NCBI GenBank assembly: GCA_043809315.1
Contig: JAZDDX010000010.1
Coordinates: 16,019 to 80,018, forward strand
Source: Pseudomonadota bacterium
GTDB lineage: Bacteria; Bdellovibrionota_G; JALEGL01; DATDPG01
Length of the DNA stretch: 64,000 nucleotides
Reading direction: 5' to 3'
Position numbers and translations under genes: made by a program. Within the stretch, counting starts at the first letter, position 1. Each line of letters begins with the position of its first letter. Positions 2,308 to 36,796 of the stretch are shown here, one piece after another. Under the pieces are notes generated by a model. That model saw only the letters and a program-made list of their open reading frames with translations, was not told where the DNA came from and searched no databases.

Positions 2308-2371
2308 CTTTTAAAAACCTCCGAACGGAAGGCTCTATATCTCCCGGAAAGAAAAGTCTAGCAGACGGCGT

Positions 2372-4755: not shown

Positions 4756-4768
4756 CGTCGAGCTGTTC

Positions 4769-5425: not shown

Positions 5426-5460
5426 GCCCCTATGGTAGGTTAGAATGACCGAACTGTGAA
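5419..5460. promoter_or_regulatory. Overlapping divergent sigma70-type promoters, both near-leaderless
   Basis: Minus strand: TTCACA-17-TACCAT-6nt-ATG(5425). Plus strand: TTGGCA-16-TAGAAT-9nt-GTG(5456). Confidence 0.55.
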
Positions 5461-5947
5461 TCTCTTCCGCTGGATCCGAAAGGAACACGCGCTGCGGGCT
5501 TCCAACCGGCTCTCCCGGCGCGGGAACGCGGCGGCAGCCCTGGATCTCATCGATCAAGCCTTGACCGAAAATCCGGGCTCGCCCGATCTGTGGATTCAGA
5601 AGAGCTGGGCCCTCTCCGACCTCAAGCGGTATGACGAGGCACTGGCCGCCGTCGCTCAGGGGCTCGGGAACGATCCCGAAAACGGGATTCTCGAACTGAT
5701 CCGGGGGGAGGCTCTCTACGCCACGGGACGTTACGAAGAGAGCAAGGCGGCCCTTCACCGGGCCCTCGATTTGTCCGGAGACAACCTCCGAATCGAACAC
5801 TCCCTGGGAATCACGTACGTGGCACTCGGAGAAATGGAACCAGCGGCTCGATATCTGGAGTCGAGCGTCCGGTACGACAAATCGTTGGTACAGGCCAGGC
5901 TCCTGGCGATGGCGGAACGGTATTTATTCGAACATCGCCCGAGATGA
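5456..5947 (+). CDS. Tetratricopeptide repeat protein
   Basis: Repeated helical A..L...P.N pattern, about 4 TPRs; overlaps the next gene by ATGA. Confidence 0.8.
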   Translation: MNLFRWIRKEHALRASNRLSRRGNAAAALDLIDQALTENPGSPDLWIQKSWALSDLKRYDEALAAVAQGLGNDPENGILELIRGEALYATGRYEESKAALHRALDLSGDNLRIEHSLGITYVALGEMEPAARYLESSVRYDKSLVQARLLAMAERYLFEHRPR

Positions 5948-6726
5948 TGATGGACGATCTTGCGCGATACGCACTGAAGGCGCCCAGGGACACCGTCATT
6001 TTCCGGGAGGGGGATGCGGGGGACGTCATGTTCTTCATCCACGCCGGACGCGTGCGGATCGAAAGGACGATAGAGACAAAAACCGACGTGATGGCGATCT
6101 TGGAAAAAGGGGATTTCTTCGGGGAGATGTCCCTTCTCGATCACGTCCCCCGCACCGCTACCGCCGTGGTGGAGGAAGACGCCGAGCTCTTGAAAGTCGA
6201 CGCCGCCAATTTCCAGAAGCTGGTCTTCGGAAATATCGAAATCGCGATCCGGATGATCCGGAAATACTCAGCCCGCCTGCGCGATGCGAACGACAAGCTG
6301 GCGAGTCTCTTGAAGGATCGCTCGCAAATGGACCAGGAGATTGCCGAGATCCTCCAGTCGGTGAAGGCCCCCATCCGACCTGCGGAAACCGAATCGCAGG
6401 AGCTGGCGCTCTTAACGGGAGAAGGCCCGGAAGCGGTCAGCCATTCGATCCGAAAGGAATGCGTCCTGATCGGCCGGCAGGACCCGGTCACCAACCTGTC
6501 CCCCGACATCGATCTCACCTCATCCGACCGGGAGCGGGGCACGTCTCGCCGACACGCCCGCTTGAAGCGCATGGACGGGCAGTTCCTTCTATTCGAGGAA
6601 CCGGGGGTTCCGAACGGAACGTTCGTAAACGGTCAAAGGATCACGCCGGGACAGCCGGTTCTGATCCGGAACGGCGACCGCGTGAGCTTCGGAAAAGTCC
6701 CTTTCACCTTCCGGACGAAGGGCTGA
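5944..6726 (+). CDS. Cyclic-nucleotide-binding domain plus FHA domain protein
   Basis: IFREGD.GD.MF and FFGEMSLL..PRTATA phosphate-binding cassette; C-terminal IGRQD..SRRHA..NGTFVNG FHA in place of an HTH. Confidence 0.88.
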   Translation: MMMDDLARYALKAPRDTVIFREGDAGDVMFFIHAGRVRIERTIETKTDVMAILEKGDFFGEMSLLDHVPRTATAVVEEDAELLKVDAANFQKLVFGNIEIAIRMIRKYSARLRDANDKLASLLKDRSQMDQEIAEILQSVKAPIRPAETESQELALLTGEGPEAVSHSIRKECVLIGRQDPVTNLSPDIDLTSSDRERGTSRRHARLKRMDGQFLLFEEPGVPNGTFVNGQRITPGQPVLIRNGDRVSFGKVPFTFRTKG

Positions 6727-6733
6727 CGACTCG

Positions 6734-7855
6734 ATGGATTTCCATACCCTTCCACCGGAACGCCTGATTCACTTCATCGTCCGGACGCGGAAGTTCGACG
6801 TCGAACGGTACGAGGATTACCTCCACTCCCTTCTTCTGAACGTCCTTTCCGACTTGAACGAGTTCGTCCCTTCCGAAGGGATTCTCATGCTGGTCGACGA
6901 CCCGATCCGGAAACGGGAAGGAAAAGGGGAACGCGAACTCACGTACGTGGCCGTATCGGGAAAGAACTCGGCGTCGCTGCTCGGCAAGAGAATGGCCGCC
7001 ACTTCCGGCGTCGCGGGGGAGATCTACACGCTCGGAAAATCGATGGTGCGCAAAGCCGATCGGACGGAGCGACTCGTGATCGACAAAGCCAACCTGCCCC
7101 AGGAGGCGATCGGTCTCGTGGGAGTGCCGCTGCGGGTTGAAACGACCATTGTCGGTGCGCTGATCGCTTACAACAAGAAAGACCCGATCGGGTACACGAT
7201 GCGGGACCTAAAGCTCGTCGAGATTTTCGCTGGGTATCTCTCCACCGCGCTCCAAAACGCGATCGACGCCCGCAAAAGCAAGGAGCTGACGAAGCGGGAC
7301 GACCTGACCGGTCTCTACAACGATCGGTTCTTCCACGTGCAGCTGGAAACCGAGGTCCGGAAGGCGGACGAACAGCGCCACCCCCTGACCCTCCTCTTTC
7401 TCGACTTGGATCACTTCAAAAACGTGAACGACGCTCACGGCCACCTCGTCGGAAGCCAGACGCTCCGAGAGATCGGTTTCGTCCTGACCGAGGCGATCGA
7501 CCTGGAAGGGGCGTTCCTCGCCCGGTACGGCGGAGACGAGTACGTCGTGATCCTCCCGGGGATCGACCTGATCCGGGCGGTCGAGATCGCCGAGAGGACC
7601 CGGATGATGATCGCCGGGAAGCTCTTCATGATCGATCAGGGGGAGCACGACGGGTCGTTCATCAATTTCAAAGGGCTGATCTCCGCGAGCTTCGGCGTGG
7701 CATCCCTGCACGATCACGTCCCGACGGGAGGGACGGTCAAAGACCGGAAGAACTTCCTGGTCCGCCTCGCCGACGCCGCCATGTACCGGGCCAAAGAGGC
7801 GGGGAAGAACTGCGTCTGCGTCGCCGACCCGACGCTGATCCGCCCCAAGCCGTGA
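6734..7855 (+). CDS. GAF-GGDEF dinucleotide cyclase, Hypr-type signature (candidate 3',3'-cGAMP synthase)
   Basis: GAF (VPLRV..IVGALIAYNK), DDLTGLYN, DLDHFKNVNDAHGHLVGS, RYGGDEY, ADAAMYRAK. Confidence 0.88.
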   Translation: MDFHTLPPERLIHFIVRTRKFDVERYEDYLHSLLLNVLSDLNEFVPSEGILMLVDDPIRKREGKGERELTYVAVSGKNSASLLGKRMAATSGVAGEIYTLGKSMVRKADRTERLVIDKANLPQEAIGLVGVPLRVETTIVGALIAYNKKDPIGYTMRDLKLVEIFAGYLSTALQNAIDARKSKELTKRDDLTGLYNDRFFHVQLETEVRKADEQRHPLTLLFLDLDHFKNVNDAHGHLVGSQTLREIGFVLTEAIDLEGAFLARYGGDEYVVILPGIDLIRAVEIAERTRMMIAGKLFMIDQGEHDGSFINFKGLISASFGVASLHDHVPTGGTVKDRKNFLVRLADAAMYRAKEAGKNCVCVADPTLIRPKP

Positions 7856-8628
7856 TGCGGATCGCCCTCGCCCAGCTCTCTTCCGGCGACAACTGGCGGA
7901 TCAACCTATGCAAGATCGAAGCCTTGATCGCCTCCGCCGCTCGCAAAAAGGCCAAGGCCATCCTCTTCCCCGAGTACTGCTTCTACCGTGGAGACCTCTG
8001 TTCCCTTCGAACCATTTCCAGGGAAATCCACCGCGCGCTACCCTGGGCCGCCCTTTCCGATCTGGCAAAGCAACATGGCATCGCGATCCTTCTTGGCGGA
8101 GTTCCCGAGTTCCAACGGGGATCAAAAAAAGTGTTCAACACGGCCATCTGGATCGACGAACGCGGAAAGATCTTGGCCCGGTACCGGAAGATCCATCTCT
8201 TCGATGCGACGGTCGGGGGGAAGAGATATCGCGAGTCAAAATATTTCCTCCCCGGCGCCCGCCCCGTCGTCTTCCGCTGGAACGGGATCAAGATCGGGAT
8301 CGCGATCTGTTACGACCTTCGCTTCCCGGAACAGTTCCGGAAGATGGCGAAGAGCGGCGCCGACTGGATCCTCCTCCCCTCCGCCTTTACAAGAAAGAAC
8401 GGAGAGGCTCACTGGCACACGTTGCTTCGGGCACGAGCGATCGAGAACCTCGCGACCGTGCTGGCCCCCGCCCAGACCGGCGGCGACACATTCGGCCATT
8501 CAGCCATCTTTGGCCCCTGGGGCGAGGCACTGCTCCGCACCGGTCGCAAGCCCGGACTCTTCTTCGCGGATGTCGATCCGAGCGCCGGCCGCGCTCTTCG
8601 CCGCAGGTTCCCCTTCTTGAAGGGTTGA
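7852..8628 (+). CDS. Carbon-nitrogen hydrolase (Nit1-like amidase)
   Basis: Catalytic triad motifs LFPE, YRKIHLFD and ICYDLRFPE; RARAIEN. Confidence 0.92.
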   Translation: MMRIALAQLSSGDNWRINLCKIEALIASAARKKAKAILFPEYCFYRGDLCSLRTISREIHRALPWAALSDLAKQHGIAILLGGVPEFQRGSKKVFNTAIWIDERGKILARYRKIHLFDATVGGKRYRESKYFLPGARPVVFRWNGIKIGIAICYDLRFPEQFRKMAKSGADWILLPSAFTRKNGEAHWHTLLRARAIENLATVLAPAQTGGDTFGHSAIFGPWGEALLRTGRKPGLFFADVDPSAGRALRRRFPFLKG

Positions 8629-8645
8629 TCCCCGGCGAGTATAAG
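8617..8645 (+). promoter_or_regulatory. sigma70-type promoter for the lipA/dehydrogenase operon
   Basis: TTGAAG-17-TATAAG, 12 nt upstream of ATG 8658. Confidence 0.45.
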
Positions 8646-8657
8646 GTCGCCTCGACC

Positions 8658-9575
8658 ATGCCGTTCCAACCCAAACCGGAGTGGATCAAGGTGCGCGCCC
8701 CCGGCGGGTCGGTGACCAACCGGATCTCCACCCTCCTGCGCAAGCGGAACCTCCACACCGTCTGCGAGGAGGCGCTCTGCCCCAACATGGGAGCCTGCTG
8801 GAAGAGTGGAACCGCCACCCTTCTTCTGATGGGAGGGGTCTGCACCCGCGGGTGCCGCTTCTGCTCCATCCAAAGCGGCAAGCCGCTCCCCCTCGACCCC
8901 TCCGAACCAGAAAAAACGGCTGAGACTGTTAAACTCATGAACCTTCGGTACGTCGTCCTGACCTCGGTCGACCGCGACGACCTCGAAGATCAGGGTTCCA
9001 ATCACTTCGCCCGCGTCATCGAAACGATTCACGAACACTGCCCCGACGTTCTCGTCGAAGCACTGATCCCCGACTTCCAAGGACGCACGGACCTTCTCTC
9101 CCGAATCCTCACCGCCCGACCCGATGTCCTCGGCCACAACATCGAAACCGTCGAGCGATTGACCCCCACCGTGCGCGACCGCCGTTGCGGCTACCGGCAA
9201 TCACTCGACGTTCTCGCCGAGATGAAACGCCAGCGTCCGGAACAGTGGACCAAATCGTCCCTCATGTTGGGGCTTGGCGAGACCCGGGACGAGATCCGGA
9301 CCGCCTTCGCCGACCTTCTCTCGGTGGGGGTTGATTTCCTGACGTTGGGCCAGTATCTCCAGCCGACGAAGAAGCATCTCCCGGTCGTCGAGTTCGTCCG
9401 GCCGGAGAAGTTCGAAGAACTGCGCCGCGAGGGGGAAGAGATCGGGTTCCGATACGTCGCTTCGGCCCCTCTCGTCCGGAGTTCGTACAAAGCCGGGGAA
9501 TTTTTCATCGAGACCGTGGTACGAAACCATCCACGAAACGGAGGATCCGATGTCGTTCGAATTCAAGCTTCCTGA
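8658..9575 (+). CDS. lipA: Lipoyl synthase
   Basis: TVCEEALCPNMGAC, CTRGCRFC, TSVDRDDL, LVRSSY. Confidence 0.96.
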   Translation: MPFQPKPEWIKVRAPGGSVTNRISTLLRKRNLHTVCEEALCPNMGACWKSGTATLLLMGGVCTRGCRFCSIQSGKPLPLDPSEPEKTAETVKLMNLRYVVLTSVDRDDLEDQGSNHFARVIETIHEHCPDVLVEALIPDFQGRTDLLSRILTARPDVLGHNIETVERLTPTVRDRRCGYRQSLDVLAEMKRQRPEQWTKSSLMLGLGETRDEIRTAFADLLSVGVDFLTLGQYLQPTKKHLPVVEFVRPEKFEELRREGEEIGFRYVASAPLVRSSYKAGEFFIETVVRNHPRNGGSDVVRIQAS

Positions 9576-10722
9576 GATCGGTGAAGGGATTAAAGAGGGG
9601 GAAGTCGTCCGCTGGCTCGTCAAACGCGGCGACCGTGTCGCCGAAGACCAGCCGATCGTGGAAGTGTTGACCGACAAAGCGACGGTTGAGATCTCCTCCC
9701 CCAAGAGCGGGAAGATCGCGCAGCTCCTCGTGAAAGAAGGGGAGATGGTGAAGGTCGGAAAAGGGCTCGTGACGATCGAAGGCAACGGCTCCGGGAAAAC
9801 CGAATTTCAAACCACCCGCACACCGGGTGTCTCCCCTCCTCCTTCGAGCACCCTCCTCGCTTCCCCCGCCACGCGAAAGCTGGCGCGCGAGATGGGGGTC
9901 GACCTGCGCTCGATCCGCGGAAGCGGCCCGCAAGGACGGATCACGCAGAAAGATCTCGAAAAGACATCGCCCGTTCCGAATGTAACCGCCCCGGTGCCGA
10001 CGATCTCGAAAGGTGGCGAGGAACGCATTCCGTTGCGCGGCATCCGGAAACGGATTGCCGAGCACATGGTCCTTTCGAAGCGCACCGTCGCCGACTTCAC
10101 GCACGTCGATGAAGTCGACATGACCGAAGTCGTTTCGCTCCGGGAGTCGCTCAAATCGAAGGCGGAGGCGCGCGGAGTGAAACTCACCTACCTTCCTTTC
10201 GTCGTCCGCGCGGTCTCCCTCGCGCTCGATCCATTCTCCCGGCTCAATTCCTCTCTCGATGAGGACAAAGGGGAGATTGTCGTCAAACGGTACGTCAACA
10301 TCGGCTTTGCCGTGAACAATCGCGAGAATGATCTGGTCGTTCCGGTGATCAAGGGGGCCGATCAGAAATCGATCCTTCAGATCGCCGCCGAGATCTCTTC
10401 TTTGACGGAGAAAGCGCAGACGAACCAACTCACCCCTTCCGATCTCACGGGGGGAACGTTCACGATCACCAGCATCGGGAACATCGGCGGGCTCTTTGCG
10501 ACCCCGATCGTGAACTACCCGGAGGTAGCGATCTTGGGGTTCTACCGAATCACCGACCAGCCGGTCGTTCGGAACGGCCAGATCGTCATCCGGAAGATGG
10601 CGCATCTTTCCGTTACGATCGACCATCGGGTTGTCGACGGCGCGATGGCGGCCTCGTTCGTCGAGGCGGTCAAACGGAATCTCGAGGACCCCAAACTGCT
10701 CTTCAACTTGTTGGACGCGTAA
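9550..10722 (+). CDS. Dihydrolipoamide acyltransferase (E2)
   Basis: Single lipoyl domain (TDKAT), E3-binding ASPATRKLA, catalytic DHRVVDG. Confidence 0.94.
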   Translation: MSFEFKLPEIGEGIKEGEVVRWLVKRGDRVAEDQPIVEVLTDKATVEISSPKSGKIAQLLVKEGEMVKVGKGLVTIEGNGSGKTEFQTTRTPGVSPPPSSTLLASPATRKLAREMGVDLRSIRGSGPQGRITQKDLEKTSPVPNVTAPVPTISKGGEERIPLRGIRKRIAEHMVLSKRTVADFTHVDEVDMTEVVSLRESLKSKAEARGVKLTYLPFVVRAVSLALDPFSRLNSSLDEDKGEIVVKRYVNIGFAVNNRENDLVVPVIKGADQKSILQIAAEISSLTEKAQTNQLTPSDLTGGTFTITSIGNIGGLFATPIVNYPEVAILGFYRITDQPVVRNGQIVIRKMAHLSVTIDHRVVDGAMAASFVEAVKRNLEDPKLLFNLLDA

Positions 10723-26871: not shown

Positions 26872-29800
26872 ATGAACCCGAACGGCCTGAACCGATCCGT
26901 CCCGTTGGCGATTCTCCTCTTCGCCGGCCTCTTGGGCGTCGGGGCCTATGCCAAGTTCCATCACGAGGCGTTCCGGTCCGCCGCGTTGGATCTCAAGATC
27001 ACACGCTCGGAGGCCCTTCGAAACGCGAAGGAGTTTCTGACCTCGAACGGTTTCTCGATTGACGGCGCTGAATCATCGGCCGCTTTCTTTTCCCACGACG
27101 ACTCAATTCTCTACCTCGAGAAGAACATGGGGACCTCCGAAGCCAACCGATGGCTTCGCGGGGGGGGCCTTCCGGTCTGGGGGTGGGAGGTTCGCTTCTT
27201 CTGGCCGCTCGAGAAAGAGGAATACCATGTCTGGTGGGCCCCCGACGGGGCTCTGCTGGGATTCCGTCACGACCTGATCCGAGAAAAGGCGAAACCGACC
27301 CTCTCGCAGTCGCAGGCCCTTTCGCTCGCGACCTCATTCGCGAAGAGCCGGCCCGAGTTCTCCCTCACCGACTATCGCCTGGTCGAACGCTCCAGCACCG
27401 AAGGGGCGCACCGAACCGATCATTTTTTCACCTGGAAATCGAAATCCAACCTCCTGGACGCCCGGCTCTACCTCCGAACCACGGTCTCCGGAAACGAGGT
27501 GAGCGCGTTCCGCAAGGAAATCGCGGTCCCCCGCTCCTTCGCACGGGCGGAGGAAGAGATCGGGTCGCGCCGGGAACTGCTCTCCCTGATCGCGAACCGG
27601 ATCGATTGGGTCTTGAGCCTAACGATCTTCCTCTTCCTCCTCGGCGCCTGGAAGCGGCGATGGCTCCGGTGGAAACCAGCCCTGTTCCTGGTCGGAGCCG
27701 TGGCCACGGTCGAGTTGATCAACCTCCTAAACGGCCTTCCCCTCGTCTGGCACGACTACTCCACGCAAGAGACGGTCTCGGCGTTCTGGCTCAATCGGAT
27801 CGGGGTTGCACTGCTCGGTCTGCTCGCGAGCACAGCCTGGTGGGTCTTTCCGTACGGCTCCGCAGACGCCATGGGGAGAACGCTTCCCGGTTCGGAGTAT
27901 TCCCTGGGGGAAATCCCGCGCCGCACGTTTTTCCGCTCCCGGCCGTTCGCGATCGCCACGCTCGCCGGTTTGGGGGCTGCGGGGATCCAGTTGGGATTCG
28001 TGGCCCTTTTCTATGTGCTGGGAAAACGGTTCTTCGGCTTCTACGCTCCGATGGACGTCCCTTACAGCGATCTCCTCACCTCGACGGTCCCGTGGATCCA
28101 GCCGCTCCTGATCGGTCTCTCGACCGCGCTTCAGGAGGAGACCGTCTACCGCCTCTTCGCGATCCCCCTGCTTTTCCGATTCACCCGGCGGAGATGGATC
28201 GCCCTTCTTGTGCCGGCGCTTCTCTGGGGGTTCCTGCACAGCGGCTACTACGTCGAGCCGATCTTCGTGCGGGGACTCGAGCTTACGGTCGTCGGGATCT
28301 TCTTCGGCCTCGTCTTTCTCCGGTTCGGCATCTGGGCCACGATCGTGGCCCACTACACCTACAACGCGGCGATCAGCTCCTCGATCTTCTGGAGTTCCGG
28401 CTCGCCGGCTCTCGTTCTCTCCTCTCTCGTCGTCGTCGGGATCCTCGCGATTCCGCTTCTCTTGAGTGCCTGGCAGCGCACTCGGAAACGGGAGTCGTTC
28501 CATCCCGTTCCGTTTAAGCCGATCGACTGGCTTCCCGCCGGACCGGCGCCGTGGCAAGGGGGTTCCGACCGCCGGAAAGCCTCGCAGCGGGAGAACCCTC
28601 TGCCGATTCTTCCCCCGATTGCGGCCATGTTGGCCGTCACCCTGACATTCGTCTTCCTTCCCCCAAAATCGGCCCCTCCCCCGATGACGCTCGACCGGAG
28701 CGAGGCGATCGCGGCAGCCCGAAGGAATCTCGAGGAACTCGGGTATCACCTCGATCGACACCTCACCTCCGCCGCGATCTATCAGACCTACCCCGGGTTG
28801 GCCGCGTCGTACCTGCGCACCCGGTCCGATGCCGCCGAGGCGGAGGCGTACCTCACGAGATTCCAGCCGAACCGATCGTACTGGTCGGTTCGGTTCGTAT
28901 CCCCCGGCCGGCCTGATGAGTGCACGGCGGAAGTCGGATCGGACGGAACCATTCCGAGTTTCTCGTGTGAGATCGGAGAGGAGGCCCCCGGCTCGAAAAT
29001 GACCGCGGCGGACGCTCGTGCCTTGGCAGAAACCTATCTCCGAGGCCGCGATTTCCGATCGGGCACCGTGCAATATATCGGCGCCTCCGAGCACGACCGC
29101 CCGAACCGGAAGGACTTCACGCACCGATGGATCGACGTCCGAGCCATTTTCGGCGAACTCCGGAGGTACATCGAGGTCGATACGGGGGGGGGCCGCGTAA
29201 CGTCGTTCGACACGTACCTCCAGGTCCCGGAAACGTTTAAACGGAAGGAGTCGGAACGAACCACTTGGGAGGTAATCCGGAACATCCTCCGGGCACTCGC
29301 TCTTCTGGCCACCGCCGGGCTCGTGCTCCGGGCCCTGTTCGACCCGAAAGTAACCGCCTCGCTCCTGTCCCCTCTTCCCCTTCAGGCGGCCCTCGTCGGC
29401 GGACTCCTCTCCCTCCTCGACGCGGGAAACGCCTTTCCGCAGTTCTGGTCGGCGTATGAATCGACCAGCCCCCTTCCGGTCTATCTCGCTCTCAAGGTTC
29501 TTTCGATCTTCGGCGGCGCCGCCACCGCGGCGATCGCAGCGTACCTCGCCACCCTTCTGTTCCTTACGCTGGCTCCGCAGGTCTTCCCGACCGCTCCGAC
29601 CGAGGAGGATATGAGGATCGTCTCCCACCGCCCCCCCTGGCGATGGCGAGAATCCCGCGTCAGCTTCCTCTGGGCCCTGGCCATCGTGTCGACCCAAATC
29701 CTGATCCGGCATCTCTCCGATCTCACCGTGGGGAATACCAACTCCGACCCGGTCGGCATCAACCTGGCGGTCTTCACAAATTACCTACCGATCGTTTCAG

Positions 29801-30189
29801 GCTTCGGTGCGTTCTGGAGTGCGCTGGTCTTCTGGGCCGCTTTCGCCGCGCTGGTCGCGGCCGGGCAGAAATATCTCCGGGCGACCGCCGGAACCGCCAC
29901 GCTCATCTTTGTCACGTGGGTCGCGCTCCTCATCCGCGGGAACACCGTAACCGACGCATTTCCGCACCTGGTGAATTTCCTGATCCTGATGTTTCTCGTC
30001 CTTCGGAGAGTTCGATTTCATCTGCCGTTCTACGTCTGGTACGCATTCCTCTCCACGCTCATCCCCTTCCTCCCTTGGATCTTCGCCGAACACCGACATT
30101 TCCAATTTCAGGCTTTTCTGGCGGCCGGGGCGATTCTCTGGATCGTGGCGACACTCTTCCGAAGATCGGATATAATGATCCGGTCTTGA
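26872..30189 (+). CDS. Large CPBP (CAAX/Abi) intramembrane metalloprotease with a duplicated extracytoplasmic module
   Basis: EETVYR, WGFLH and AHYTYN motifs; many TM helices; internal repeat. Confidence 0.82.
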   Translation: MNPNGLNRSVPLAILLFAGLLGVGAYAKFHHEAFRSAALDLKITRSEALRNAKEFLTSNGFSIDGAESSAAFFSHDDSILYLEKNMGTSEANRWLRGGGLPVWGWEVRFFWPLEKEEYHVWWAPDGALLGFRHDLIREKAKPTLSQSQALSLATSFAKSRPEFSLTDYRLVERSSTEGAHRTDHFFTWKSKSNLLDARLYLRTTVSGNEVSAFRKEIAVPRSFARAEEEIGSRRELLSLIANRIDWVLSLTIFLFLLGAWKRRWLRWKPALFLVGAVATVELINLLNGLPLVWHDYSTQETVSAFWLNRIGVALLGLLASTAWWVFPYGSADAMGRTLPGSEYSLGEIPRRTFFRSRPFAIATLAGLGAAGIQLGFVALFYVLGKRFFGFYAPMDVPYSDLLTSTVPWIQPLLIGLSTALQEETVYRLFAIPLLFRFTRRRWIALLVPALLWGFLHSGYYVEPIFVRGLELTVVGIFFGLVFLRFGIWATIVAHYTYNAAISSSIFWSSGSPALVLSSLVVVGILAIPLLLSAWQRTRKRESFHPVPFKPIDWLPAGPAPWQGGSDRRKASQRENPLPILPPIAAMLAVTLTFVFLPPKSAPPPMTLDRSEAIAAARRNLEELGYHLDRHLTSAAIYQTYPGLAASYLRTRSDAAEAEAYLTRFQPNRSYWSVRFVSPGRPDECTAEVGSDGTIPSFSCEIGEEAPGSKMTAADARALAETYLRGRDFRSGTVQYIGASEHDRPNRKDFTHRWIDVRAIFGELRRYIEVDTGGGRVTSFDTYLQVPETFKRKESERTTWEVIRNILRALALLATAGLVLRALFDPKVTASLLSPLPLQAALVGGLLSLLDAGNAFPQFWSAYESTSPLPVYLALKVLSIFGGAATAAIAAYLATLLFLTLAPQVFPTAPTEEDMRIVSHRPPWRWRESRVSFLWALAIVSTQILIRHLSDLTVGNTNSDPVGINLAVFTNYLPIVSGFGAFWSALVFWAAFAALVAAGQKYLRATAGTATLIFVTWVALLIRGNTVTDAFPHLVNFLILMFLVLRRVRFHLPFYVWYAFLSTLIPFLPWIFAEHRHFQFQAFLAAGAILWIVATLFRRSDIMIRS

Positions 30190-31432: not shown

Positions 31433-32971
31433 ATGAACTTCGGCCCGTTCAGCGCCAGGTCCCGAGAGGAGATGCTCACGACCTGCGCGGCCCAGCCTCT
31501 CGACCTCGTCGTCATCGGCGGGGGGATCACCGGCGCCGGAATTCTGCGCGATGCGACCTTGCGCGGGTTTCGCTGCGCTCTGTTCGAAAAGGATGACTTT
31601 GCTTCCGGAACCTCCAGCCGTTCATCCAAGCTGATCCACGGCGGGATCCGCTACCTCGAGACCGGCCAGATCCCGCTCGTTTTCGAGGGACTCCGGGAAC
31701 GTCGACTCCTTCTGAACCTCGCCCCCCAGTTTGTGAAGCCGCTGTCGTTCGTCTTTCCGGTCTATCGCGGGCAGGCAAGATCTCTCCCGACCGTAGCCGC
31801 CGGGGTGTACCTCTATCATTTTCTCTCCCTCTTCCGGGATATCGATCGCCCCCGCGTGATGCTTACCAAAAGGACACTCACGCTGGAACCGATGCTCCGA
31901 TCGGAGGGTCTTACCGGTTCGGTGGTTTATTACGATGGTGTCACCGACGATTCGGCGCTCACGTTGGCCACCGTCCGTTCTGCGTGGGAACACGGCGGCA
32001 TCGCCGTCAACCACGCGGAGGTGATCTCCCTTCTCGAGGAAAAGAACCGCGCCGCAGGGGTCCGGGTCCGGGACCGTCTTCGCGGCGGGGAGTATGAAAT
32101 CCGCGCCCGCTGGATCATCAATGCCACTGGCCCGTGGTCCGATCGATTCCGCCGGGGGGCCGCTCTCGACCGGCCGATCCTCCGTCCGACCAAAGGGGTT
32201 CATCTGGTTCTGGACCGCACACGCTTGCGGATTTCGAACGCGATCGTGATGCTCCACCCCATCGATGGTCGCGTCACGTTTGTGATCCCGTGGAGAGGCA
32301 TGCTCCTCGTCGGCACAACCGATACTGATTATCCAGGAAACCCCGACCAGCCGGAAGTCCTGCCTGCCGACGTCCGGTACCTTCTGGAAGCCGTCAACCA
32401 CTATTTCCCGTTGGCCCGTCTCCAGCCGGCTCATGTCGTCAGCACGTTCGCCGGCGTCCGCCCTCTCCTTGCGGGACGGAAACCCCCGGAAAAGGTCAAA
32501 CCGTCCGCCCTTTCCCGCGATCACCGGATCTTCGAGGAACGTCCCGGGTTCTGGAGCGTCGCCGGCGGCAAACTCACATCGTTCCGAAGGATGGCCGAAG
32601 AGACGCTCGACCGCGTGATGCGCGCCGATCCGGAGTGGCGATCTCGCTTCCGGGAGCATCCGACCCGGTACATGCCGTACAGCCGGGACGTCAAGCCTCC
32701 CGGAAAGGACGGGGAGATCATCGCCGGCACCGGGATCCGCTGGTCCGACATCGTCCGTGCCATCGACGACGGGATGGCCGCCACCGTGGAAGATGTCCTG
32801 GAACGGCGGACGCCGCTTTCCCTGCTGGATCGACGTCACGGAGCCGATCTGGTACATCGGGTCGCGCAGCTGCTCACGGAGCGCCTGGGACCTCTTCCCG
32901 GTTCTCCAAGTCAGCTCGGGAATTATCATGAAACGATCCGCCGCGCCGAAGAAGGCCTCGAACGCTCCTGA
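31433..32971 (+). CDS. glpD: FAD-dependent glycerol-3-phosphate dehydrogenase/oxidase
   Basis: GGGITGAG, GTSSRSSKLIHGGIRYL, KGVHLV, GTTD, GVRPL, GGKLT. Confidence 0.9.
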   Translation: MNFGPFSARSREEMLTTCAAQPLDLVVIGGGITGAGILRDATLRGFRCALFEKDDFASGTSSRSSKLIHGGIRYLETGQIPLVFEGLRERRLLLNLAPQFVKPLSFVFPVYRGQARSLPTVAAGVYLYHFLSLFRDIDRPRVMLTKRTLTLEPMLRSEGLTGSVVYYDGVTDDSALTLATVRSAWEHGGIAVNHAEVISLLEEKNRAAGVRVRDRLRGGEYEIRARWIINATGPWSDRFRRGAALDRPILRPTKGVHLVLDRTRLRISNAIVMLHPIDGRVTFVIPWRGMLLVGTTDTDYPGNPDQPEVLPADVRYLLEAVNHYFPLARLQPAHVVSTFAGVRPLLAGRKPPEKVKPSALSRDHRIFEERPGFWSVAGGKLTSFRRMAEETLDRVMRADPEWRSRFREHPTRYMPYSRDVKPPGKDGEIIAGTGIRWSDIVRAIDDGMAATVEDVLERRTPLSLLDRRHGADLVHRVAQLLTERLGPLPGSPSQLGNYHETIRRAEEGLERS

Positions 32972-33884
32972 ACGGACGTTCGACATCGTCGGGATCGGCC
33001 GCAATTCATGGGACCGTCTCGTCGTGGTCGCGAATTACCCCCCCGCCGACGCCAAAGTCGAAGCGTCGACCCTCGACATCCAGCCCGGTGGACAGGTTGC
33101 GACCGCCCTCGTCGCGGCGTCCCGTCTCGGCGCAAGAACGCGATATCTGGGAAAATTCGGAGACGACGCCGGAGGGCGGGCGGTTCGTGCCTCCCTTTCC
33201 CGCGAGGGGATCGATCTTTCCGGATGCCGGGTGTTGACCGGCGTCTCGAACCAATCGGCGTTCATCGTCGTCGACCGCAAACATCACACGAGAAACGTCT
33301 TTTCCCACGGCGATCCGCGCCTGCGCATCGAATCGGATGATTTTCCGCACGAAGCGGTGACTTCCGGCCGGATTCTTTATCTCGGGGGGAGGAACCCCCG
33401 CGAGATGATCGGATACGCCCGAACCGGGCGGAAAGCGGGGTGCGTCGTCACGGTCGACGCCGACTCGGCCGCCGACGGGGCCGCGGAGCTGTTGGCACAC
33501 GCTCACGTCGTCATCTGCAGCGAGCCTTTCGTCGCCGAACAGACCGGGGAACGGTCGATTCGAAAAGGGCTCCGCGAAATTTCGAAACTGGGTCCGGAGT
33601 TCGTCAGCGTGACGCGCGGATCGCGGGGGGCGATCGCACTCTATCGCGACCGGTTCTTCGAACAGCCCGCTTTTTCAGTCGATGTGGTCGACACGACCGG
33701 GGCCGGGGACGTTTTTCACGGCGCCCTTCTCGTCGGGATCCTCGAACGGCGTCCGATCCCCGATCTCCTCCGCCTCGCCAATGCGGCCGCAGCACTCAAG
33801 TGCCGTTGCCTCGGCGGGCAGAAGGGGATCGCGAAGCGCACGGATGTCAACCGCTTCCTCGCATCCCATCCAGCGAATCCCTGA
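32928..33884 (+). CDS. PfkB/ribokinase family kinase
   Basis: PGGQVATA...RLG, DTTGAGDVFHG. Confidence 0.9.
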   Translation: MKRSAAPKKASNAPERTFDIVGIGRNSWDRLVVVANYPPADAKVEASTLDIQPGGQVATALVAASRLGARTRYLGKFGDDAGGRAVRASLSREGIDLSGCRVLTGVSNQSAFIVVDRKHHTRNVFSHGDPRLRIESDDFPHEAVTSGRILYLGGRNPREMIGYARTGRKAGCVVTVDADSAADGAAELLAHAHVVICSEPFVAEQTGERSIRKGLREISKLGPEFVSVTRGSRGAIALYRDRFFEQPAFSVDVVDTTGAGDVFHGALLVGILERRPIPDLLRLANAAAALKCRCLGGQKGIAKRTDVNRFLASHPANP

Positions 33885-33932: not shown

Positions 33933-34949
33933 ATGGCAATCCATGTTGGTTTGATGGGGTTCGGCCGGATCGGGCGGAACATCTTCCGCATCCTGTACGG
34001 CCAGGATGACATTCAGGTCGTGGCGATCTCCGACATCGTCGATCCGCCGGCCTTGGAGTACTTACTGCAGTTCGACACGGTTCACGGTCGGTTTCCCGAG
34101 CCGGTCACGGCAAAGGGGGACACGCTGTACGTCAAAGGACGGCAGGTAAAACTCGTCCAAGGCAAAGAGCCCAAAGACGTCCCGTGGAAGGATCTCGGGG
34201 TCGACATCGTCATCGAGGCCTCCGCGCGCGGCAGAACCCGGGCTTCTTTGGAAGATCACCTCAAACAAGGTGCGAAGCGGGTCGTCTTGACCGTTCCGGC
34301 GCACGATCCGGTCGATGCCGTGATCGTCCGCGGCGTGAACGACGAAGTGTTGAACGCCAAACACCGGATCATCTCGGCGGCATCGATCACGACGAACTGC
34401 GCCGGCTTGATGCTCAAAATCCTCAACAATGCCTTCGGCGTCGAGCGGGCCTTCATGACGACGATCCACGCCTACACCAACGCCCAGCGCCTGGCCGACG
34501 TCCCCCACACCGACCTCCGGCAGTGCCGGGCGGCAGCGGAAAACATCATCCCGACCGAGACGCACGTCACCGAAGCGATCGGGGAGATCATCCCGGAACT
34601 GAAGGGCAAGTTCGCCGGGATGGCGATGAACGTGCCCGTACCGGACGGATCGAACGTCGACCTCGTGACCGAGACGAAGCAGCCGGTCACCGTGGAATCG
34701 GTGAACGAGATTTTCCGGAGCGCGGCTGGTTCGATTTACAAGGGGATCGTTTCGTACATGGACGACCCGATCGTATCGAGCGACGTGATCGGCGACTCCC
34801 ACTCCGTGGTCTTTGACTCGCTCGCGACCATGACCCTGGGGGACCGAATGGTCAAAACGCTCGGCTGGTACGACAACGGTTGGGGATACGCCCACCGGGT
34901 CGTGGAACTGGTCCAACGTATGTCGAAGTTCGAAGGAGGTGCGCGATGA
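33933..34949 (+). CDS. GAPDH-family protein lacking the catalytic cysteine
   Basis: GFGRIGR and WYDNGWGY present; active site reads SAASITTNC instead of SNASCTTNC. Confidence 0.88.
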   Translation: MAIHVGLMGFGRIGRNIFRILYGQDDIQVVAISDIVDPPALEYLLQFDTVHGRFPEPVTAKGDTLYVKGRQVKLVQGKEPKDVPWKDLGVDIVIEASARGRTRASLEDHLKQGAKRVVLTVPAHDPVDAVIVRGVNDEVLNAKHRIISAASITTNCAGLMLKILNNAFGVERAFMTTIHAYTNAQRLADVPHTDLRQCRAAAENIIPTETHVTEAIGEIIPELKGKFAGMAMNVPVPDGSNVDLVTETKQPVTVESVNEIFRSAAGSIYKGIVSYMDDPIVSSDVIGDSHSVVFDSLATMTLGDRMVKTLGWYDNGWGYAHRVVELVQRMSKFEGGAR

Positions 34950-35947
34950 CCATTCGGATCGGAATCAACGGCTTCGGCCGGATCGGGCGGGCGGTCTACC
35001 GCCTGGTTGCCGACCGGAAAGACATTCAGGTCGTGGCGGTCAACGACATCACCGCACCCGAAACGCTCGTCTATCTACTCAAGTTCGACACGATCTTCGG
35101 AATCTTTCCCCACTCGACCGCCTTGGTGGACGGCATCCTGACCACCGCGAACCAGAAGACGAAGATGTTCCGAGAGAACGATCCGACGAAGCTTCCGTGG
35201 AAAGACCTCGGCGTCGACATCGCGATCGAATCGACGGGGAAGTTCACGAAACGGGCCGATGTCGAGAAACACCTTGCGGCGGGAGCGAAAAAGGTGATTT
35301 TGACCGTCCCCCCGAAAGATCCTTTGGACGCGATGGTCGTCATCGGCGTGAACGACGGGATCCTGAACAAGGATCATCGATTGGTTTCGAACGCCTCCTG
35401 CACGACCAACTGCCTGGCGCCGATGGTGAAGGTGTTGAACGACAACTTTGGAATCGAGCGCGGCTTCATGACGACCGTCCACTCGTACACCAACGACCAG
35501 CGCCTGAGCGATCAGTATCACAAGGACCTCCGCCGAGCGCGGGCGGCGAACGAGAATATCATCCCGACAACGACCGGAGCAGCCCGGGCGGTCGGGAAGA
35601 TCCTGCCGGAGCTGGCCGGGAAACTGGACGGGACCGCGATGCGGATCCCTCTCCCGGACGGATCGATCGTCGATCTCGTGTCGGTCTTGAAAAAGAAGAC
35701 GACCGCCGAGGAGATCAATCGAACGATGAAAACCGCCAGCGAGACATACCTGAAGGGGATCCTCCAATACTCGGAAGACCCGATCGTTTCAAGCGACATC
35801 ATCGGGAACACGCACTCGTCGATCTTCGATGCCCCGTTCACGAAGGTGATCGGCGGGAACTACGTCAAGACCGTGGCGTGGTACGACAACGAGTGGGGGT
35901 ATTCCTGCCGCGTGGTCGACCTGATCGCGAAGCTAGCTTCGCTGTAA
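34946..35947 (+). CDS. gap: Type I glyceraldehyde-3-phosphate dehydrogenase
   Basis: GINGFGRIGR, SNASCTTNCLAP, IIPTTTGAA, WYDNEWGY; GGAGGT RBS. Confidence 0.96.
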   Translation: MTIRIGINGFGRIGRAVYRLVADRKDIQVVAVNDITAPETLVYLLKFDTIFGIFPHSTALVDGILTTANQKTKMFRENDPTKLPWKDLGVDIAIESTGKFTKRADVEKHLAAGAKKVILTVPPKDPLDAMVVIGVNDGILNKDHRLVSNASCTTNCLAPMVKVLNDNFGIERGFMTTVHSYTNDQRLSDQYHKDLRRARAANENIIPTTTGAARAVGKILPELAGKLDGTAMRIPLPDGSIVDLVSVLKKKTTAEEINRTMKTASETYLKGILQYSEDPIVSSDIIGNTHSSIFDAPFTKVIGGNYVKTVAWYDNEWGYSCRVVDLIAKLASL

Positions 35948-36796
35948 GAGCGATCGAAGTTTTTTCAAATTCTCCCGGTCCTCGTGGAGATCGTCCGACT
36001 TCGGCGTCTCGATCACCATCGGGTGATCCTTGAACCTCGAATCATTCAAAAGAAACCGGAACGGCTCGAGGCCGAGCTCCCCTTTGCCGATATGCTCGTG
36101 GCGATCCACGCGGCAGTCGAGCCCTTTCTTTGAATCATTGACGTGAAATGCCCACAGATGCTTCAACCCCGCGACGCGATCGAACTCCTTCATCGTCGCT
36201 TCATACGTCTCCTTTGTCCGAAGATCGTACCCGGCGGCAAACGCATGGCAGGTATCGAAACAGAAACCCACCCTCTTCTTCTCCTCCACCGCGTCGCGAA
36301 TCATCGAAAGTTCCTCGAACTTCCGTCCGACCGTCGTCCCTTGACCGGCGCAGTTCTCCAACAAGAGAAGAACCTTCTGATCCTTCCTTTCGCCGGTCAA
36401 CCGGTTGAGCGCGTCCGAGAGCCGCTTCGCCCCTTTTTCGATCCCCTCCCCCATGTGCGCCCCCGGGTGAAAGATCAGGAAATCGAGCCCAAGGGCCTCT
36501 GCCCGATCCATCTCTTCCCCGAACGCCCGGACCGACTTCTCCCATAACGCAGGGTCGGGAGAGGCCATGTTGATCAGGTACGAGTCGTGCGCGAAGACGA
36601 ACTTGAGCCCCGCCTCCTCTTTCGCTGTCCGAAACCGGTCAGGCTCCTCCGCCGTCATTCTTTTCGCCGCCCACTGGTTCGAACTCTTCGTGAAGATCTG
36701 GAGCGCCTCGATTTCAACCGTCTTTCCCCGCTCCACCGCCTTGTCGAAACCACCCGCGATCGACATATGCGCACCTAAATAGGGTCCTCGTTTCAT
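35933..36796 (-). CDS. nfo: Endonuclease IV
   Basis: GAHMSIAGG, HDSYLIN, FHPG, LEN.AGQG, DTCHAFAAG, DRHEHIG. Confidence 0.95.
   Translation of the reverse strand: MKRGPYLGAHMSIAGGFDKAVERGKTVEIEALQIFTKSSNQWAAKRMTAEEPDRFRTAKEEAGLKFVFAHDSYLINMASPDPALWEKSVRAFGEEMDRAEALGLDFLIFHPGAHMGEGIEKGAKRLSDALNRLTGERKDQKVLLLLENCAGQGTTVGRKFEELSMIRDAVEEKKRVGFCFDTCHAFAAGYDLRTKETYEATMKEFDRVAGLKHLWAFHVNDSKKGLDCRVDRHEHIGKGELGLEPFRFLLNDSRFKDHPMVIETPKSDDLHEDRENLKKLRSLLQRS

What the first reader, a model, noticed from the sequence alone, without database searches (positions are those of the whole stretch)
33933..35947. Pseudo-enzyme GAPDH translationally coupled to an active GAPDH
Seen: the first copy is full length but has Ile (ATC, 34386-34388; two bases from TGC) at the nucleophilic Cys. 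It also has IIPTETHV for IIPTTTGA and MAMNVP for TAMRIP, losing phosphate-binding residues, while the NAD motif, catalytic His and second Cys remain. Its stop overlaps the gap start (ATGA). Known: both GapA and Epd need this Cys. Inference: coordinated loss in an intact frame points to a retained non-catalytic role, such as an NAD(H)- or redox-sensing subunit of a heterotetramer, or to a new chemistry.
Basis: partly seen in the sequence, partly recalled or inferred. Interest (0 to 1): 0.8.

Follow-up and report, generated by a model that had tools for sequence, protein, structure and literature searches.

The report
Cysteine-less GAPDH paralog coupled to gap
Directly in front of this bacterium's only real GAPDH gene, and overlapping it, lies an old, well-preserved sister gene that has lost the enzyme's reactive cysteine and phosphate-binding arginines, so it most likely encodes a non-catalytic partner subunit that I could not find described for this much-studied enzyme.

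Summary
The window carries gapX (33933-34949, 338 aa) overlapping a canonical gap (34946-35947) by ATGA. GapX has Ile for Cys149, Asn for Arg231, Gln for Arg195, Gly for Glu314 and TETHV for TTTGA. It keeps the NAD motif and His176.

This is not recent decay.
- All 4 of 4 other genomes of the same family carry the same Cys-less copy upstream of gap.
- Its dN and dN/dS equal those of the real enzyme.

GapX belongs to a monophyletic family defined by Asn231 and Gly314, found in many mostly uncultured phyla. In 49 of the 53 copies examined a canonical gap follows directly downstream; the other 4 loci cannot be judged. Stop and start overlap in 37 of the 49 pairs.

Most of the sequences retrieved keep Cys149 (98 of the 119 nearest hits). 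The cysteine changed state at least 7 times on the tree, so "dead" fits this lineage, not the whole family.

My best reading is a non-catalytic, NAD-binding subunit that assembles with Gap. A complex model passes its controls, but that pass may reflect solved GAPDH homotetramers. Binding is not shown.

Six full-text searches found no paper on this. The scan has already reported this family on at least seven other genomes.

The parts
33933..34949 (+). gapX: 338-aa GAPDH-fold paralog without the catalytic Cys (P0001)
   Evidence: ORF and translation. Pfam Gp_dh_N and Gp_dh_C both match. TIGR01534 scores 365.8 bits, just under its cut-off of 367.2.
34386..34388 (+). ATC = Ile152, at the place of the nucleophilic Cys149
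   Evidence: Sequence, pairwise alignment and family alignment.
34521..34523 (+). CAG = Gln197, at the place of Arg195 (DLRQCRA against DLRRARA)
34554..34568 (+). TETHV in place of the TTTGA phosphate (Pi) loop
   Evidence: These positions are relaxed across the gapX family.
34629..34631 (+). AAC = Asn233, at the place of Arg231. This is a family hallmark.
   Evidence: Asn in 110 of the 119 nearest hits and in 90% of the gapX rows on the tree.
34878..34880 (+). GGT = Gly316, at the place of Glu314 (WYDNGWG against WYDNEWG). This is a family hallmark.
   Evidence: Gly in 119 of 119 hits, against Glu in 100% of canonical gaps.
34934..34939 (+). AGGAGG Shine-Dalgarno sequence for gap, inside the 3' end of gapX
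   Evidence: Sequence. An SD-like motif precedes gap in 44 of 49 pairs from other loci.
34946..34949 (+). ATGA: the gap start codon overlaps the gapX stop codon
   Evidence: Sequence. A 4-nt overlap occurs in 12 and a 1-nt overlap in 25 of 49 pairs elsewhere.
34946..35947 (+). gap: canonical type I GAPDH (P0002), the only one in the genome
   Evidence: TIGR01534 scores 434.2 bits against a cut-off of 367.2. Cys152, His, TTTGA, Arg and WYDNEWG are all present. The genome has only two Gp_dh_C matches, this pair.
32928..33884 (+). Upstream PfkB-family sugar kinase (context only; the start codon is uncertain)
   Evidence: Pfam PF00294, E = 2e-43.
31433..32971 (+). Upstream FAD-dependent glycerol-3-phosphate dehydrogenase-like gene (context only)
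   Evidence: Pfam DAO, with a weaker DAO_C match just under its cut-off. A homolog lies upstream in 3 same-family loci, L085-L087.

Best explanation
GapX is a GAPDH-derived pseudoenzyme in this lineage. It keeps the GAPDH fold, the Rossmann NAD(H) site and the subunit interface. It has lost the thiol nucleophile (Cys149 to Ile) and the anion sites for the substrate phosphate and inorganic phosphate (Arg231 to Asn, Arg195 to Gln, TGA loop to THV).

It is transcribed with the cell's single real gap and translationally coupled to it: an AGGAGG lies inside gapX and the stop and start codons overlap as ATGA. The two proteins would therefore be made together.

My proposal is that they co-assemble into a mixed GAPDH oligomer, most simply an A2B2 tetramer, in which GapX supplies interfaces and an NAD(H)-binding but non-turnover site. 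That would tune the activity, cooperativity or stability of Gap.

Shown here:
- the gene anatomy and the loss of catalytic residues;
- purifying selection equal to that on Gap;
- obligate, ordered linkage across phyla;
- preferential conservation of the modelled interface.

Inferred, not shown: physical binding, stoichiometry, NAD(H) binding and any effect on Gap.
For: 1. Linkage. 189 fetched loci hold 53 gapX-type ORFs. Of these, 49 have a canonical gap directly downstream on the same strand, always in the order gapX then gap. The other 4 cannot be judged: 3 sit at contig ends and 1 is a frameshifted region. Spacing is a 4-nt overlap in 12 pairs, a 1-nt overlap in 25 and 2-134 nt in 12. An SD-like motif precedes gap in 44 of 49.

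2. No other neighbour is conserved. The best neighbour family is shared by 5 of 50 loci. Where neighbours are informative they are glycolytic: iPGM, pgk and class-II aldolase in Desulfobacterales, and GlpD and PfkB here.

3. P0002 is the sole other GAPDH homolog in the genome. All 4 of 4 same-family genomes and 1 further genome of the phylum carry the pair; the other 11 of the phylum's 17 genomes have no second, gapX-type match (10 a single canonical gap, one 74%-complete genome no match at all).

4. Selection. Among the five same-family genomes gapX dN is 0.19-0.29 and gap dN is 0.19-0.28. dN/dS is 0.15-0.17 against 0.13-0.17 in the 3 of 10 same-family pairs per gene where dS is not saturated. 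Across the same 42 genomes, mean column identity is 64% for gapX and 66% for gap.

5. The cysteine is dispensable for the family's function. The gapX clade is monophyletic (72 leaves, support 99). Residue 149 is C in 38, I in 13, S in 10, V in 7 and P, A, N in 1 each. At least 7 changes between Cys and non-Cys are needed on two trees. All 97 canonical gaps have Cys.

6. Pattern of constraint.
- Conserved in at least 94% of gapX rows (most in 97-100%): GxGRxGR, Asp32, Ser148, Thr150, His176, Thr179, Arg194, Arg197 and Asn313.
- Relaxed: pocket positions 149, 153, 206, 209, 210 and 213.
- Family-wide switches: Arg231 to Asn and Glu314 to Gly.

7. Complex model of P0002 with P0001. ipSAE was 0.69, 0.67 and 0.69, against a best control of 0.00 (3 controls). 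The mark was reached by 58 of 80 solved complexes and 2 of 110 mismatched pairs. The runs share at least 99% of contacts and partner pLDDT is 92. GAPDH homotetramers are solved, so the pass may show likeness only.

8. The modelled interface residues are more conserved in gapX than the rest of its catalytic domain: entropy 0.85 against 1.35, Mann-Whitney p = 0.0015. In Gap the two are equal, 0.83 against 0.84.
Against: - No experiment or structure shows binding. The complex model cannot tell a Gap-GapX heteromer from two separate homotetramers, because the modelled interface is the ordinary symmetric GAPDH dimer interface.
- No true gapX-gap fusion protein was found. Three of 105 longer hits join the two, but gapX homology stops at residues 238-287 in each, as a frameshift error would give.
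- Most retrieved family members keep Cys149 (98 of 119 nearest hits), and His176, Ser148, Thr150 and Thr179 are conserved almost throughout. The ancestral or majority protein may therefore still do chemistry, and the active-site region may bind a ligand.
- Interface residues are usually more buried and more conserved in any oligomer.
- The related sequences are not independent samples.
- Expression of gapX is not shown. The read mapping was uninformative.
Confidence: 0.55

Rival explanations
1. GapX is an independent enzyme with changed chemistry or substrate. One example would be an NAD-dependent dehydrogenase that uses His176 as a base on a non-phosphorylated or differently charged substrate. 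It would be linked to gap only because it works in the same pathway.
For: - The NAD motif, Asp32, Asn313, His176, Ser148, Thr150 and Thr179 are conserved in 94-100% of gapX rows.
- Arg231 to Asn and Glu314 to Gly are fixed switches, not random decay.
- 98 of the 119 nearest hits keep Cys149.
- Residue 209 is usually aromatic: W in 57, H in 35, F in 14 and Y in 7 of 119.
Against: - The nucleophile position changed state at least 7 times, to chemically unlike residues (I, V, S, P, A, N), without loss of the gene or of its conservation.
- Ten or so members have no Cys at either 149 or 153.
- The loop lining the substrate and phosphate pocket (206, 209, 210, 213) is among the least conserved parts of gapX. 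A shared new substrate would predict the opposite.
- Pathway neighbours are not normally kept in a fixed order with overlapping stop and start codons in 37 of 49 loci while every other neighbour varies.
Confidence: 0.15
2. GapX is a stand-alone homo-oligomeric NAD(H)- or metabolite-binding protein derived from GAPDH. It acts on something other than Gap, for example on another glycolytic enzyme, RNA or a regulator. It is co-expressed with gap only for co-regulation.
For: The NAD site and the oligomer interface are conserved. The modelled interface is the symmetric one, which a homodimer would also use. GAPDH is known for moonlighting (own knowledge).
Against: In 49 of 53 copies a canonical gap lies directly downstream; the other 4 cannot be judged. 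The partner gaps form their own lineage together with gapX: the clade has 102 leaves and holds only 4 rows that are neither gapX nor a listed partner - P0099, which falls inside the gapX clade, and 3 gaps at contig starts. No other conserved neighbour could serve as a target.
Confidence: 0.2
3. GapX is a recently inactivated duplicate on its way to loss (a pseudogene in an intact frame).
For: Catalytic residues are lost. TIGR01534 scores just under its cut-off.
Against: - The frame is intact in 5 of 5 genomes of the family, which are only 65-73% identical to one another in this protein.
- dN/dS is about 0.16, the same as for gap.
- All 17 closest database relatives (65-86% identity) share the Cys-less state.
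- The family spans many phyla.
Confidence: 0.02

Closest known systems
Type I phosphorylating GAPDH (GapA; TIGR01534, EC 1.2.1.12), e.g. Geobacillus stearothermophilus 1GD1
   Same: Same two Pfam domains and the same length, with a gap-free alignment. The gapX profile hits 1GD1 at E = 2.5e-129. The NAD motif, Asp32, His176, Ser148, Thr150, Thr179 and Asn313 are kept.
   Different: No Cys149 here. No Arg231 or Glu314 almost anywhere in the family. The Pi loop is altered. The score is just under the NCBIfam cut-off. All the top solved structures are canonical enzymes or engineered Cys149 mutants (1NQ5, 1NPT). Nothing in the listed hits looks like a natural gapX-type structure (60 of 140 hits listed, names only).
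Chloroplast GapA/GapB A2B2 GAPDH (own knowledge; structures such as 2PKQ and 7Q53 appear)
   Same: Two GAPDH paralogs form one heterotetramer, and the second subunit adds regulation.
   Different: Both chloroplast subunits are catalytic, and GapB regulates through a C-terminal extension (recalled). GapX has no such extension (it ends about 5 residues after the homologous end) and lacks catalytic residues. The hetero-oligomer is only inferred here.
Non-catalytic paralog subunits encoded beside the active enzyme: GlgD with GlgC (Bacillus ADP-glucose pyrophosphorylase), PyrC' with PyrB (Pseudomonas ATCase), HisZ with HisG. All recalled from memory; none tested here.
   Same: This is the logic proposed: a dead paralog, adjacent and often overlapping the active gene, is needed for or modulates the active oligomer.
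   Different: Different folds and enzymes. For GAPDH I found no such partner in print.
Erythrose-4-phosphate dehydrogenase (Epd/GapB of E. coli) and ArsJ-associated GAPDH
   Same: Specialised GAPDH paralogs of similar length.
   Different: Both need the Cys (review PMC12041015, passages read). P0001 scores far below their cut-offs: NF010058 309.6 against 539, TIGR01532 308.6 against 530.55, NF033735 318.3 against 450.

Membership tests
Type I GAPDH (TIGR01534, EC 1.2.1.12) | Gp_dh_N and Gp_dh_C domains over the full length | tested here: met
   PF00044 at 109.5 bits and PF02800 at 189.8 bits.
Type I GAPDH (TIGR01534, EC 1.2.1.12) | Equivalog score at or above the curated cut-off | tested here: not met
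   365.8 bits against a cut-off of 367.2. The neighbour P0002 scores 434.2.
Type I GAPDH (TIGR01534, EC 1.2.1.12) | Nucleophilic Cys149 (thiohemiacetal; role as stated in PMC12041015, passages read) | tested here: not met
   Ile152 (ATC 34386-34388). The residue is Cys in 97 of 97 canonical gaps on the tree.
Type I GAPDH (TIGR01534, EC 1.2.1.12) | Arg231, which takes part in both phosphate sites (PMC12041015, passages read) | tested here: not met
   Asn233 (AAC 34629-34631).
Type I GAPDH (TIGR01534, EC 1.2.1.12) | His176 and the NAD-binding GxGxxG, Asp32 and Asn313 | tested here: met
   All are present in P0001 and conserved in 94-100% of gapX rows.
Type I GAPDH (TIGR01534, EC 1.2.1.12) | G3P-oxidising, phosphorylating activity | not testable with these tools
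   Needs an enzyme assay.
Erythrose-4-phosphate dehydrogenase (Epd) | NCBIfam equivalog score, and the catalytic Cys | tested here: not met
   NF010058 309.6 against 539 and TIGR01532 308.6 against 530.55. No Cys.
ArsJ-associated GAPDH (NF033735) | Model score, and an arsJ neighbour | tested here: not met
   318.3 against 450. The neighbours are a PfkB kinase, gap and an AP endonuclease, not arsJ.
gapX family (defined here; unnamed in the libraries used) | A non-Arg residue (usually Asn) at 231 and Gly at 314, in a monophyletic clade | tested here: met
   P0001 has Asn233 and Gly316 and falls inside the 72-leaf clade with support 99.
gapX family (defined here; unnamed in the libraries used) | Directly upstream of a canonical gap on the same strand, with close or overlapping stop and start codons | tested here: met
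   ATGA overlap here. 49 of 53 copies elsewhere show the arrangement and the other 4 are undecidable.
A2B2 hetero-oligomeric GAPDH (chloroplast GapA/GapB type) | Both subunits catalytic, and a regulatory C-terminal extension on the second (recalled) | tested here: not met
   P0001 lacks the Cys and ends about 5 residues after the homologous end, with no extension.
A2B2 hetero-oligomeric GAPDH (chloroplast GapA/GapB type) | Physical hetero-oligomer of the two paralogs | tested here: inconclusive
   The complex model scores ipSAE 0.69 against a best control of 0.00. The mark was reached by 58 of 80 solved complexes and 2 of 110 mismatched pairs. The pass may reflect solved GAPDH homotetramers.

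The most novel reading that the evidence does not exclude
In these bacteria, spread over many mostly uncultured phyla, glycolytic GAPDH is not the textbook homotetramer. It is an obligate two-gene enzyme: a catalytic Gap plus a GAPDH-derived, NAD(H)-binding, non-turnover GapX subunit. The GapX site would act as a built-in sensor of NADH/NAD+ or of a metabolite and set the activity or cooperativity of the catalytic sites. Lineages that still keep Cys149 in GapX would be an intermediate, possibly redox-responsive, state.
Probability: 0.4. Interest if true: 0.8.

Novelty: new variant of a known kind. Interest (0 to 1): 0.65.

Why it matters
GAPDH is one of the best-studied enzymes and is treated as a homotetramer in bacteria. 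A conserved, translationally coupled paralog without the phosphate-binding arginine, and in several lineages without the catalytic cysteine, would mean two things. Central carbon metabolism in a wide set of environmental bacteria may use a two-subunit GAPDH. It would also add a clear bacterial case of a pseudoenzyme that regulates its active sister.

There is a practical consequence too. Public annotation calls these proteins 'type I glyceraldehyde-3-phosphate dehydrogenase'; one example is the Cys-less relative MFH1017948.1. Counts of gap copy number in metagenome-assembled genomes, and pathway inferences built on them, are therefore inflated.

Tried and rejected
- Public reads. Only small shares of the stretch were held (0.15, 0.06, 0.06). 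What mapped at 90-95% likeness was mostly conserved gap segments of other organisms. One 189-nt DNA contig bridges the gapX-gap junction. Nothing can be said about expression or co-transcription.
- Promoter and terminator scan. No promoter-like site, and 4 terminator-like sites against 5.6 expected. Uninformative.
- Fused forms. Three of 105 longer proteins (P0407-P0409) carry gapX-type then gap-type parts. In each, gapX homology stops at residues 238-287 and an unalignable stretch follows. I read them as frameshift artefacts, not fusions, so they give no Rosetta-stone support.
- Conserved neighbours. None beyond gap. My longest-ORF gene calling in this GC-rich DNA is crude and missed, for example, the PfkB gene in the window.
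- Representative-library search. It returned only canonical or more distant GAPDHs at 58% identity or less and added nothing. Multi-domain hits such as P0122 all carry canonical Cys motifs.
- Metagenome scan for close relatives with DNA, for a cleaner dN/dS. The best hit was 63% identical. dS is therefore saturated in 12 of 15 gapX pairs and in 10 of 15 gap pairs.
- Relocation of the nucleophile to the Cys four residues on (Cys153). That Cys is kept in all members of the window's clade. Other Cys149-less lineages have Ala or Val there, so this is not a general solution.
- Literature on Glu314. Nothing relevant, so I assign no role to the Glu314-to-Gly switch.
- A search for a cultured carrier through Desulfobacterales relatives. 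Every one of the 120 best hits that carries an organism name comes from a MAG.
- I did not run a separate structure prediction or fold search. Sequence already places the protein in the GAPDH fold, and the complex model gave a pLDDT of 92.
Full report
**1. What is in the window**

Two GAPDH-like genes lie head to tail on the + strand.
- gapX runs 33933-34949 and encodes 338 aa (P0001).
- gap runs 34946-35947 and encodes 333 aa (P0002).
- The proteins are 51% identical (169 of 333) with no gap in the alignment.
- The gapX TGA stop overlaps the gap ATG (ATGA, 34946-34949). An AGGAGG (34934-34939) sits 6 nt before that ATG, inside gapX.

P0002 has every canonical feature: SCTTNC, TVHSYT, RRARA, IIPTTTGA, AMRIP and WYDNEWG. 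It passes the NCBIfam equivalog for type I GAPDH with 434.2 bits against a cut-off of 367.2.

P0001 differs from it as follows.

| Canonical residue | In P0001 | Window coordinates |
|---|---|---|
| Cys149 | Ile (ATC) | 34386-34388 |
| Arg195 | Gln | 34521-34523 |
| TTTGA loop | TETHV | 34554-34568 |
| Arg231 | Asn | 34629-34631 |
| Glu314 | Gly | 34878-34880 |

P0001 keeps GFGRIGR, the Asp of AISD, the active-site His, Ser148, Thr150, Thr179, Asn313 and the Cys four residues after the lost one. It scores 365.8 bits, just under the same cut-off. Both Pfam GAPDH domains are present.

The roles of these residues come from passages of the review PMC12041015, read in find mode:
- Cys149 forms the thiohemiacetal.
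- His176 activates it.
- Arg231 takes part in both phosphate sites.

The genome is 2.42 Mb and 96% complete. It has no other Gp_dh_C homolog, so P0002 is its only real GAPDH.

**2. Not recent decay**

All 4 of 4 other genomes of the same family, each a different genus, carry the same pair. Their gapX is 66-70% identical to P0001 and has Ile or Val at 149. Their gap is 66-69% identical to P0002. A sixth genome of the phylum, in another family, has the pair with Val at 149.

The phylum holds only 17 genomes. The other 11 show a single canonical gap or, in one 74%-complete genome, none.

Among the five same-family genomes:
- gapX dN is 0.19-0.29 and gap dN is 0.19-0.28;
- where dS is not saturated (3 of the 10 same-family pairs per gene), dN/dS is 0.15-0.17 for gapX and 0.13-0.17 for gap.

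All 17 closest database relatives (65-86% identity) also lack the Cys.

**3. A wide family, always in front of gap**

The 119 best database hits to P0001 (59-86% identity) are all closer to it than its own neighbour P0002 is. They share these states:
- Gly314 in 119 of 119;
- a non-Arg residue at 231 in 118 of 119 (Asn 110, Cys 8);
- His176, Asn313 and Asp32 in 119 of 119.

I fetched 189 loci from species-representative genomes, metagenomes and relatives and classified every GAPDH-like ORF. There were 53 gapX-type ORFs, 184 canonical ones and 3 fragments.

Of the 53 gapX-type ORFs:
- 49 have a canonical gap immediately downstream on the same strand, and never in the reverse order;
- 3 sit at contig ends;
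- 1 lies in a frameshifted region.

Spacing is a 4-nt overlap in 12 pairs, a 1-nt overlap in 25 and 2-134 nt in 12. An SD-like motif precedes gap in 44 of 49 pairs.

By record title the carriers are MAGs of Acidobacteriota (including Thermoanaerobaculia), Eisenbacteria, Krumholzibacteriia, Desulfobacterales, Multivoradales, Planctomycetota and Actinomycetota, plus unclassified bacteria.

No other neighbour is conserved; the best is shared by 5 of 50 loci. Where neighbours are informative they are glycolytic: iPGM, pgk and class-II aldolase in Desulfobacterales. In the window's family the upstream genes are a GlpD-like gene and, in the window itself, a PfkB kinase.

**4. Phylogeny and the fate of the cysteine**

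The tree set was cut from 346 to 169 rows. I kept only full ORFs of 300-380 aa and database hits of 320-350 aa. I then removed near-duplicates at 75-90% identity.

On this tree:
- gapX is one clade of 72 leaves with FastTree support 99;
- it nests within the grade of its partner gaps;
- together they form a 102-leaf clade;
- that clade holds only 4 rows that are neither gapX nor a listed partner: P0099, which falls inside the gapX clade, and 3 gaps at contig starts;
- mean path length from the common node is 1.05 substitutions per site for gapX and 0.51 for the partners.

Residue 149 in the 71 gapX rows is C in 38, I in 13, S in 10, V in 7 and P, A, N in 1 each. All 97 canonical gaps have Cys. 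At least 7 changes between Cys and non-Cys are needed, both on this tree and on an IQ-TREE quick tree of 84 rows.

Two conclusions follow.
- The function that keeps gapX does not need the nucleophile.
- 'Cys-less' describes particular lineages, including the window's, and not the family. 98 of the 119 nearest hits keep Cys149. In the large Acidobacteriota-type group the Cys is nearly always kept, which suggests it still has some use there.

**5. What is and is not constrained**

*Across gapX rows*
- Conserved in at least 94% of rows: the NAD-binding glycines and arginines, Asp32, Ser148, Thr150, His176, Thr179, Arg194, Arg197 and Asn313.
- Relaxed relative to canonical gaps: 149, 153, the Pi loop (206, 209, 210, 213), Asn31 and the Gly of ESTG.

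*Between gapX and its partners*
- Only four positions are fixed differences: 173 Ala against Gly, 233 Asn against Arg, 316 Gly against Glu, and 320 Ala against Ser.

*Overall*
- Conservation equals that of the partner: 64% against 66% mean column identity over the same 42 genomes.

A variable pocket inside an otherwise tightly kept protein argues against a shared new substrate.

**6. Does it bind Gap?**

A complex model of P0002 with P0001, using my own alignments A2 and A1, gave the following:
- ipSAE of 0.69, 0.67 and 0.69, against a best control of 0.00 over 3 controls;
- the mark was reached by 58 of 80 solved complexes and 2 of 110 mismatched pairs;
- the runs agree in at least 99% of contacts, and partner pLDDT is 92.

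The interface is the symmetric GAPDH dimer interface (residues 172-310). GAPDH homotetramers are solved, so the pass may be memory. It cannot separate a heteromer from two homomers.

The modelled interface residues are more conserved in gapX than the rest of its catalytic domain: entropy 0.85 against 1.35, Mann-Whitney p = 0.0015. In Gap the two classes are equal, 0.83 against 0.84. Buried interface residues do tend to be conserved anyway.

No true fusion of the two genes was found.

**7. Reading**

The most likely reading (0.55) is that GapX is a non-catalytic, probably NAD(H)-binding subunit made together with Gap and assembled with it.

| Rival | Confidence | Main argument against |
|---|---|---|
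| Independent enzyme with altered chemistry | 0.15 | Repeated loss of the nucleophile and a variable pocket |
| Stand-alone NAD(H)- or metabolite-binding protein acting elsewhere | 0.20 | Exclusive, ordered coupling to gap |
| Decaying duplicate | 0.02 | Refuted |

**8. What is known**

Six full-text searches found no description of a natural Cys-less or Arg231-less bacterial GAPDH paralog, nor of a GAPDH pseudoenzyme. These were search listings only. The one paper I read in passages was PMC12041015, which uses 'pseudoenzyme' only for ALDH16. Supplements were not consulted.

The closest solved structures are canonical GAPDHs, led by 1GD1 at E = 2.5e-129.

Public annotation names these proteins 'type I glyceraldehyde-3-phosphate dehydrogenase' or 'GAPDH NAD-binding domain-containing protein'.

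Functional analogues such as GlgD, PyrC', HisZ and chloroplast GapA/GapB are recalled from memory, not tested.

This scan has reported the same family on at least seven other genomes. My results show that any blanket statement that the family is Cys-less would be wrong.

**9. Verdict**

- This is a real, conserved feature that I could not find described in print: a new variant of a known kind (the GAPDH family, and pseudoenzyme partners of active paralogs).
- Binding and function need the bench.

Noticed in passing
L005, L008, L019 (Desulfobacterales MAG loci), around 2159-9681: In these loci the pair sits inside a glycolytic operon: iPGM, gapX, gap, pgk, class-II fructose-bisphosphate aldolase. 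In L006-type loci a glycerate-kinase-like gene (DUF4147 + MOFRL) follows gap instead.
   Followed up: partly
window 31433-33884: A GlpD-like FAD dehydrogenase and a PfkB-family kinase lie upstream of gapX on the same strand, and the two ORFs appear to overlap by about 44 nt. A GlpD homolog is also upstream in 3 same-family loci (L085-L087). This may link the pair to glycerol or C3 metabolism.
   Followed up: partly
protein P0099 (database hit, 340 aa): This member falls inside the gapX clade with Val at 149 and Gly314, but it keeps Arg at 231. It is the only one of 119 hits to do so.
   Followed up: no
gapX family alignment: There is a reciprocal pattern of the two helix cysteines. The large Acidobacteriota-type group is Cys149 with Ala153. 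The window's clade is Ile or Val at 149 with Cys153 (Cys153 in all its leaves). The Desulfobacterales type keeps both. About ten members have neither.
   Followed up: partly
L072:4985-7708: In one Thermoanaerobaculia MAG the gapX C-terminus and the start of gap are out of frame. This is either a frameshift or an assembly error.
   Followed up: no
proteins P0122 (2089 aa), P0144 (1455 aa), P0126 (509 aa): These are very long predicted proteins with two to four canonical GAPDH active-site motifs each. They are probably tandem genes merged by gene calling.
   Followed up: partly
window 26872-30189: A 1105-aa ORF with many hydrophobic stretches (a large membrane protein) lies upstream of the region. 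I did not examine it.
   Followed up: no
window 35933-36796 (-): An AP-endonuclease-2 / xylose-isomerase-like TIM-barrel gene (nfo-like) converges on gap, and its end overlaps the gap stop by about 15 nt.
   Followed up: no
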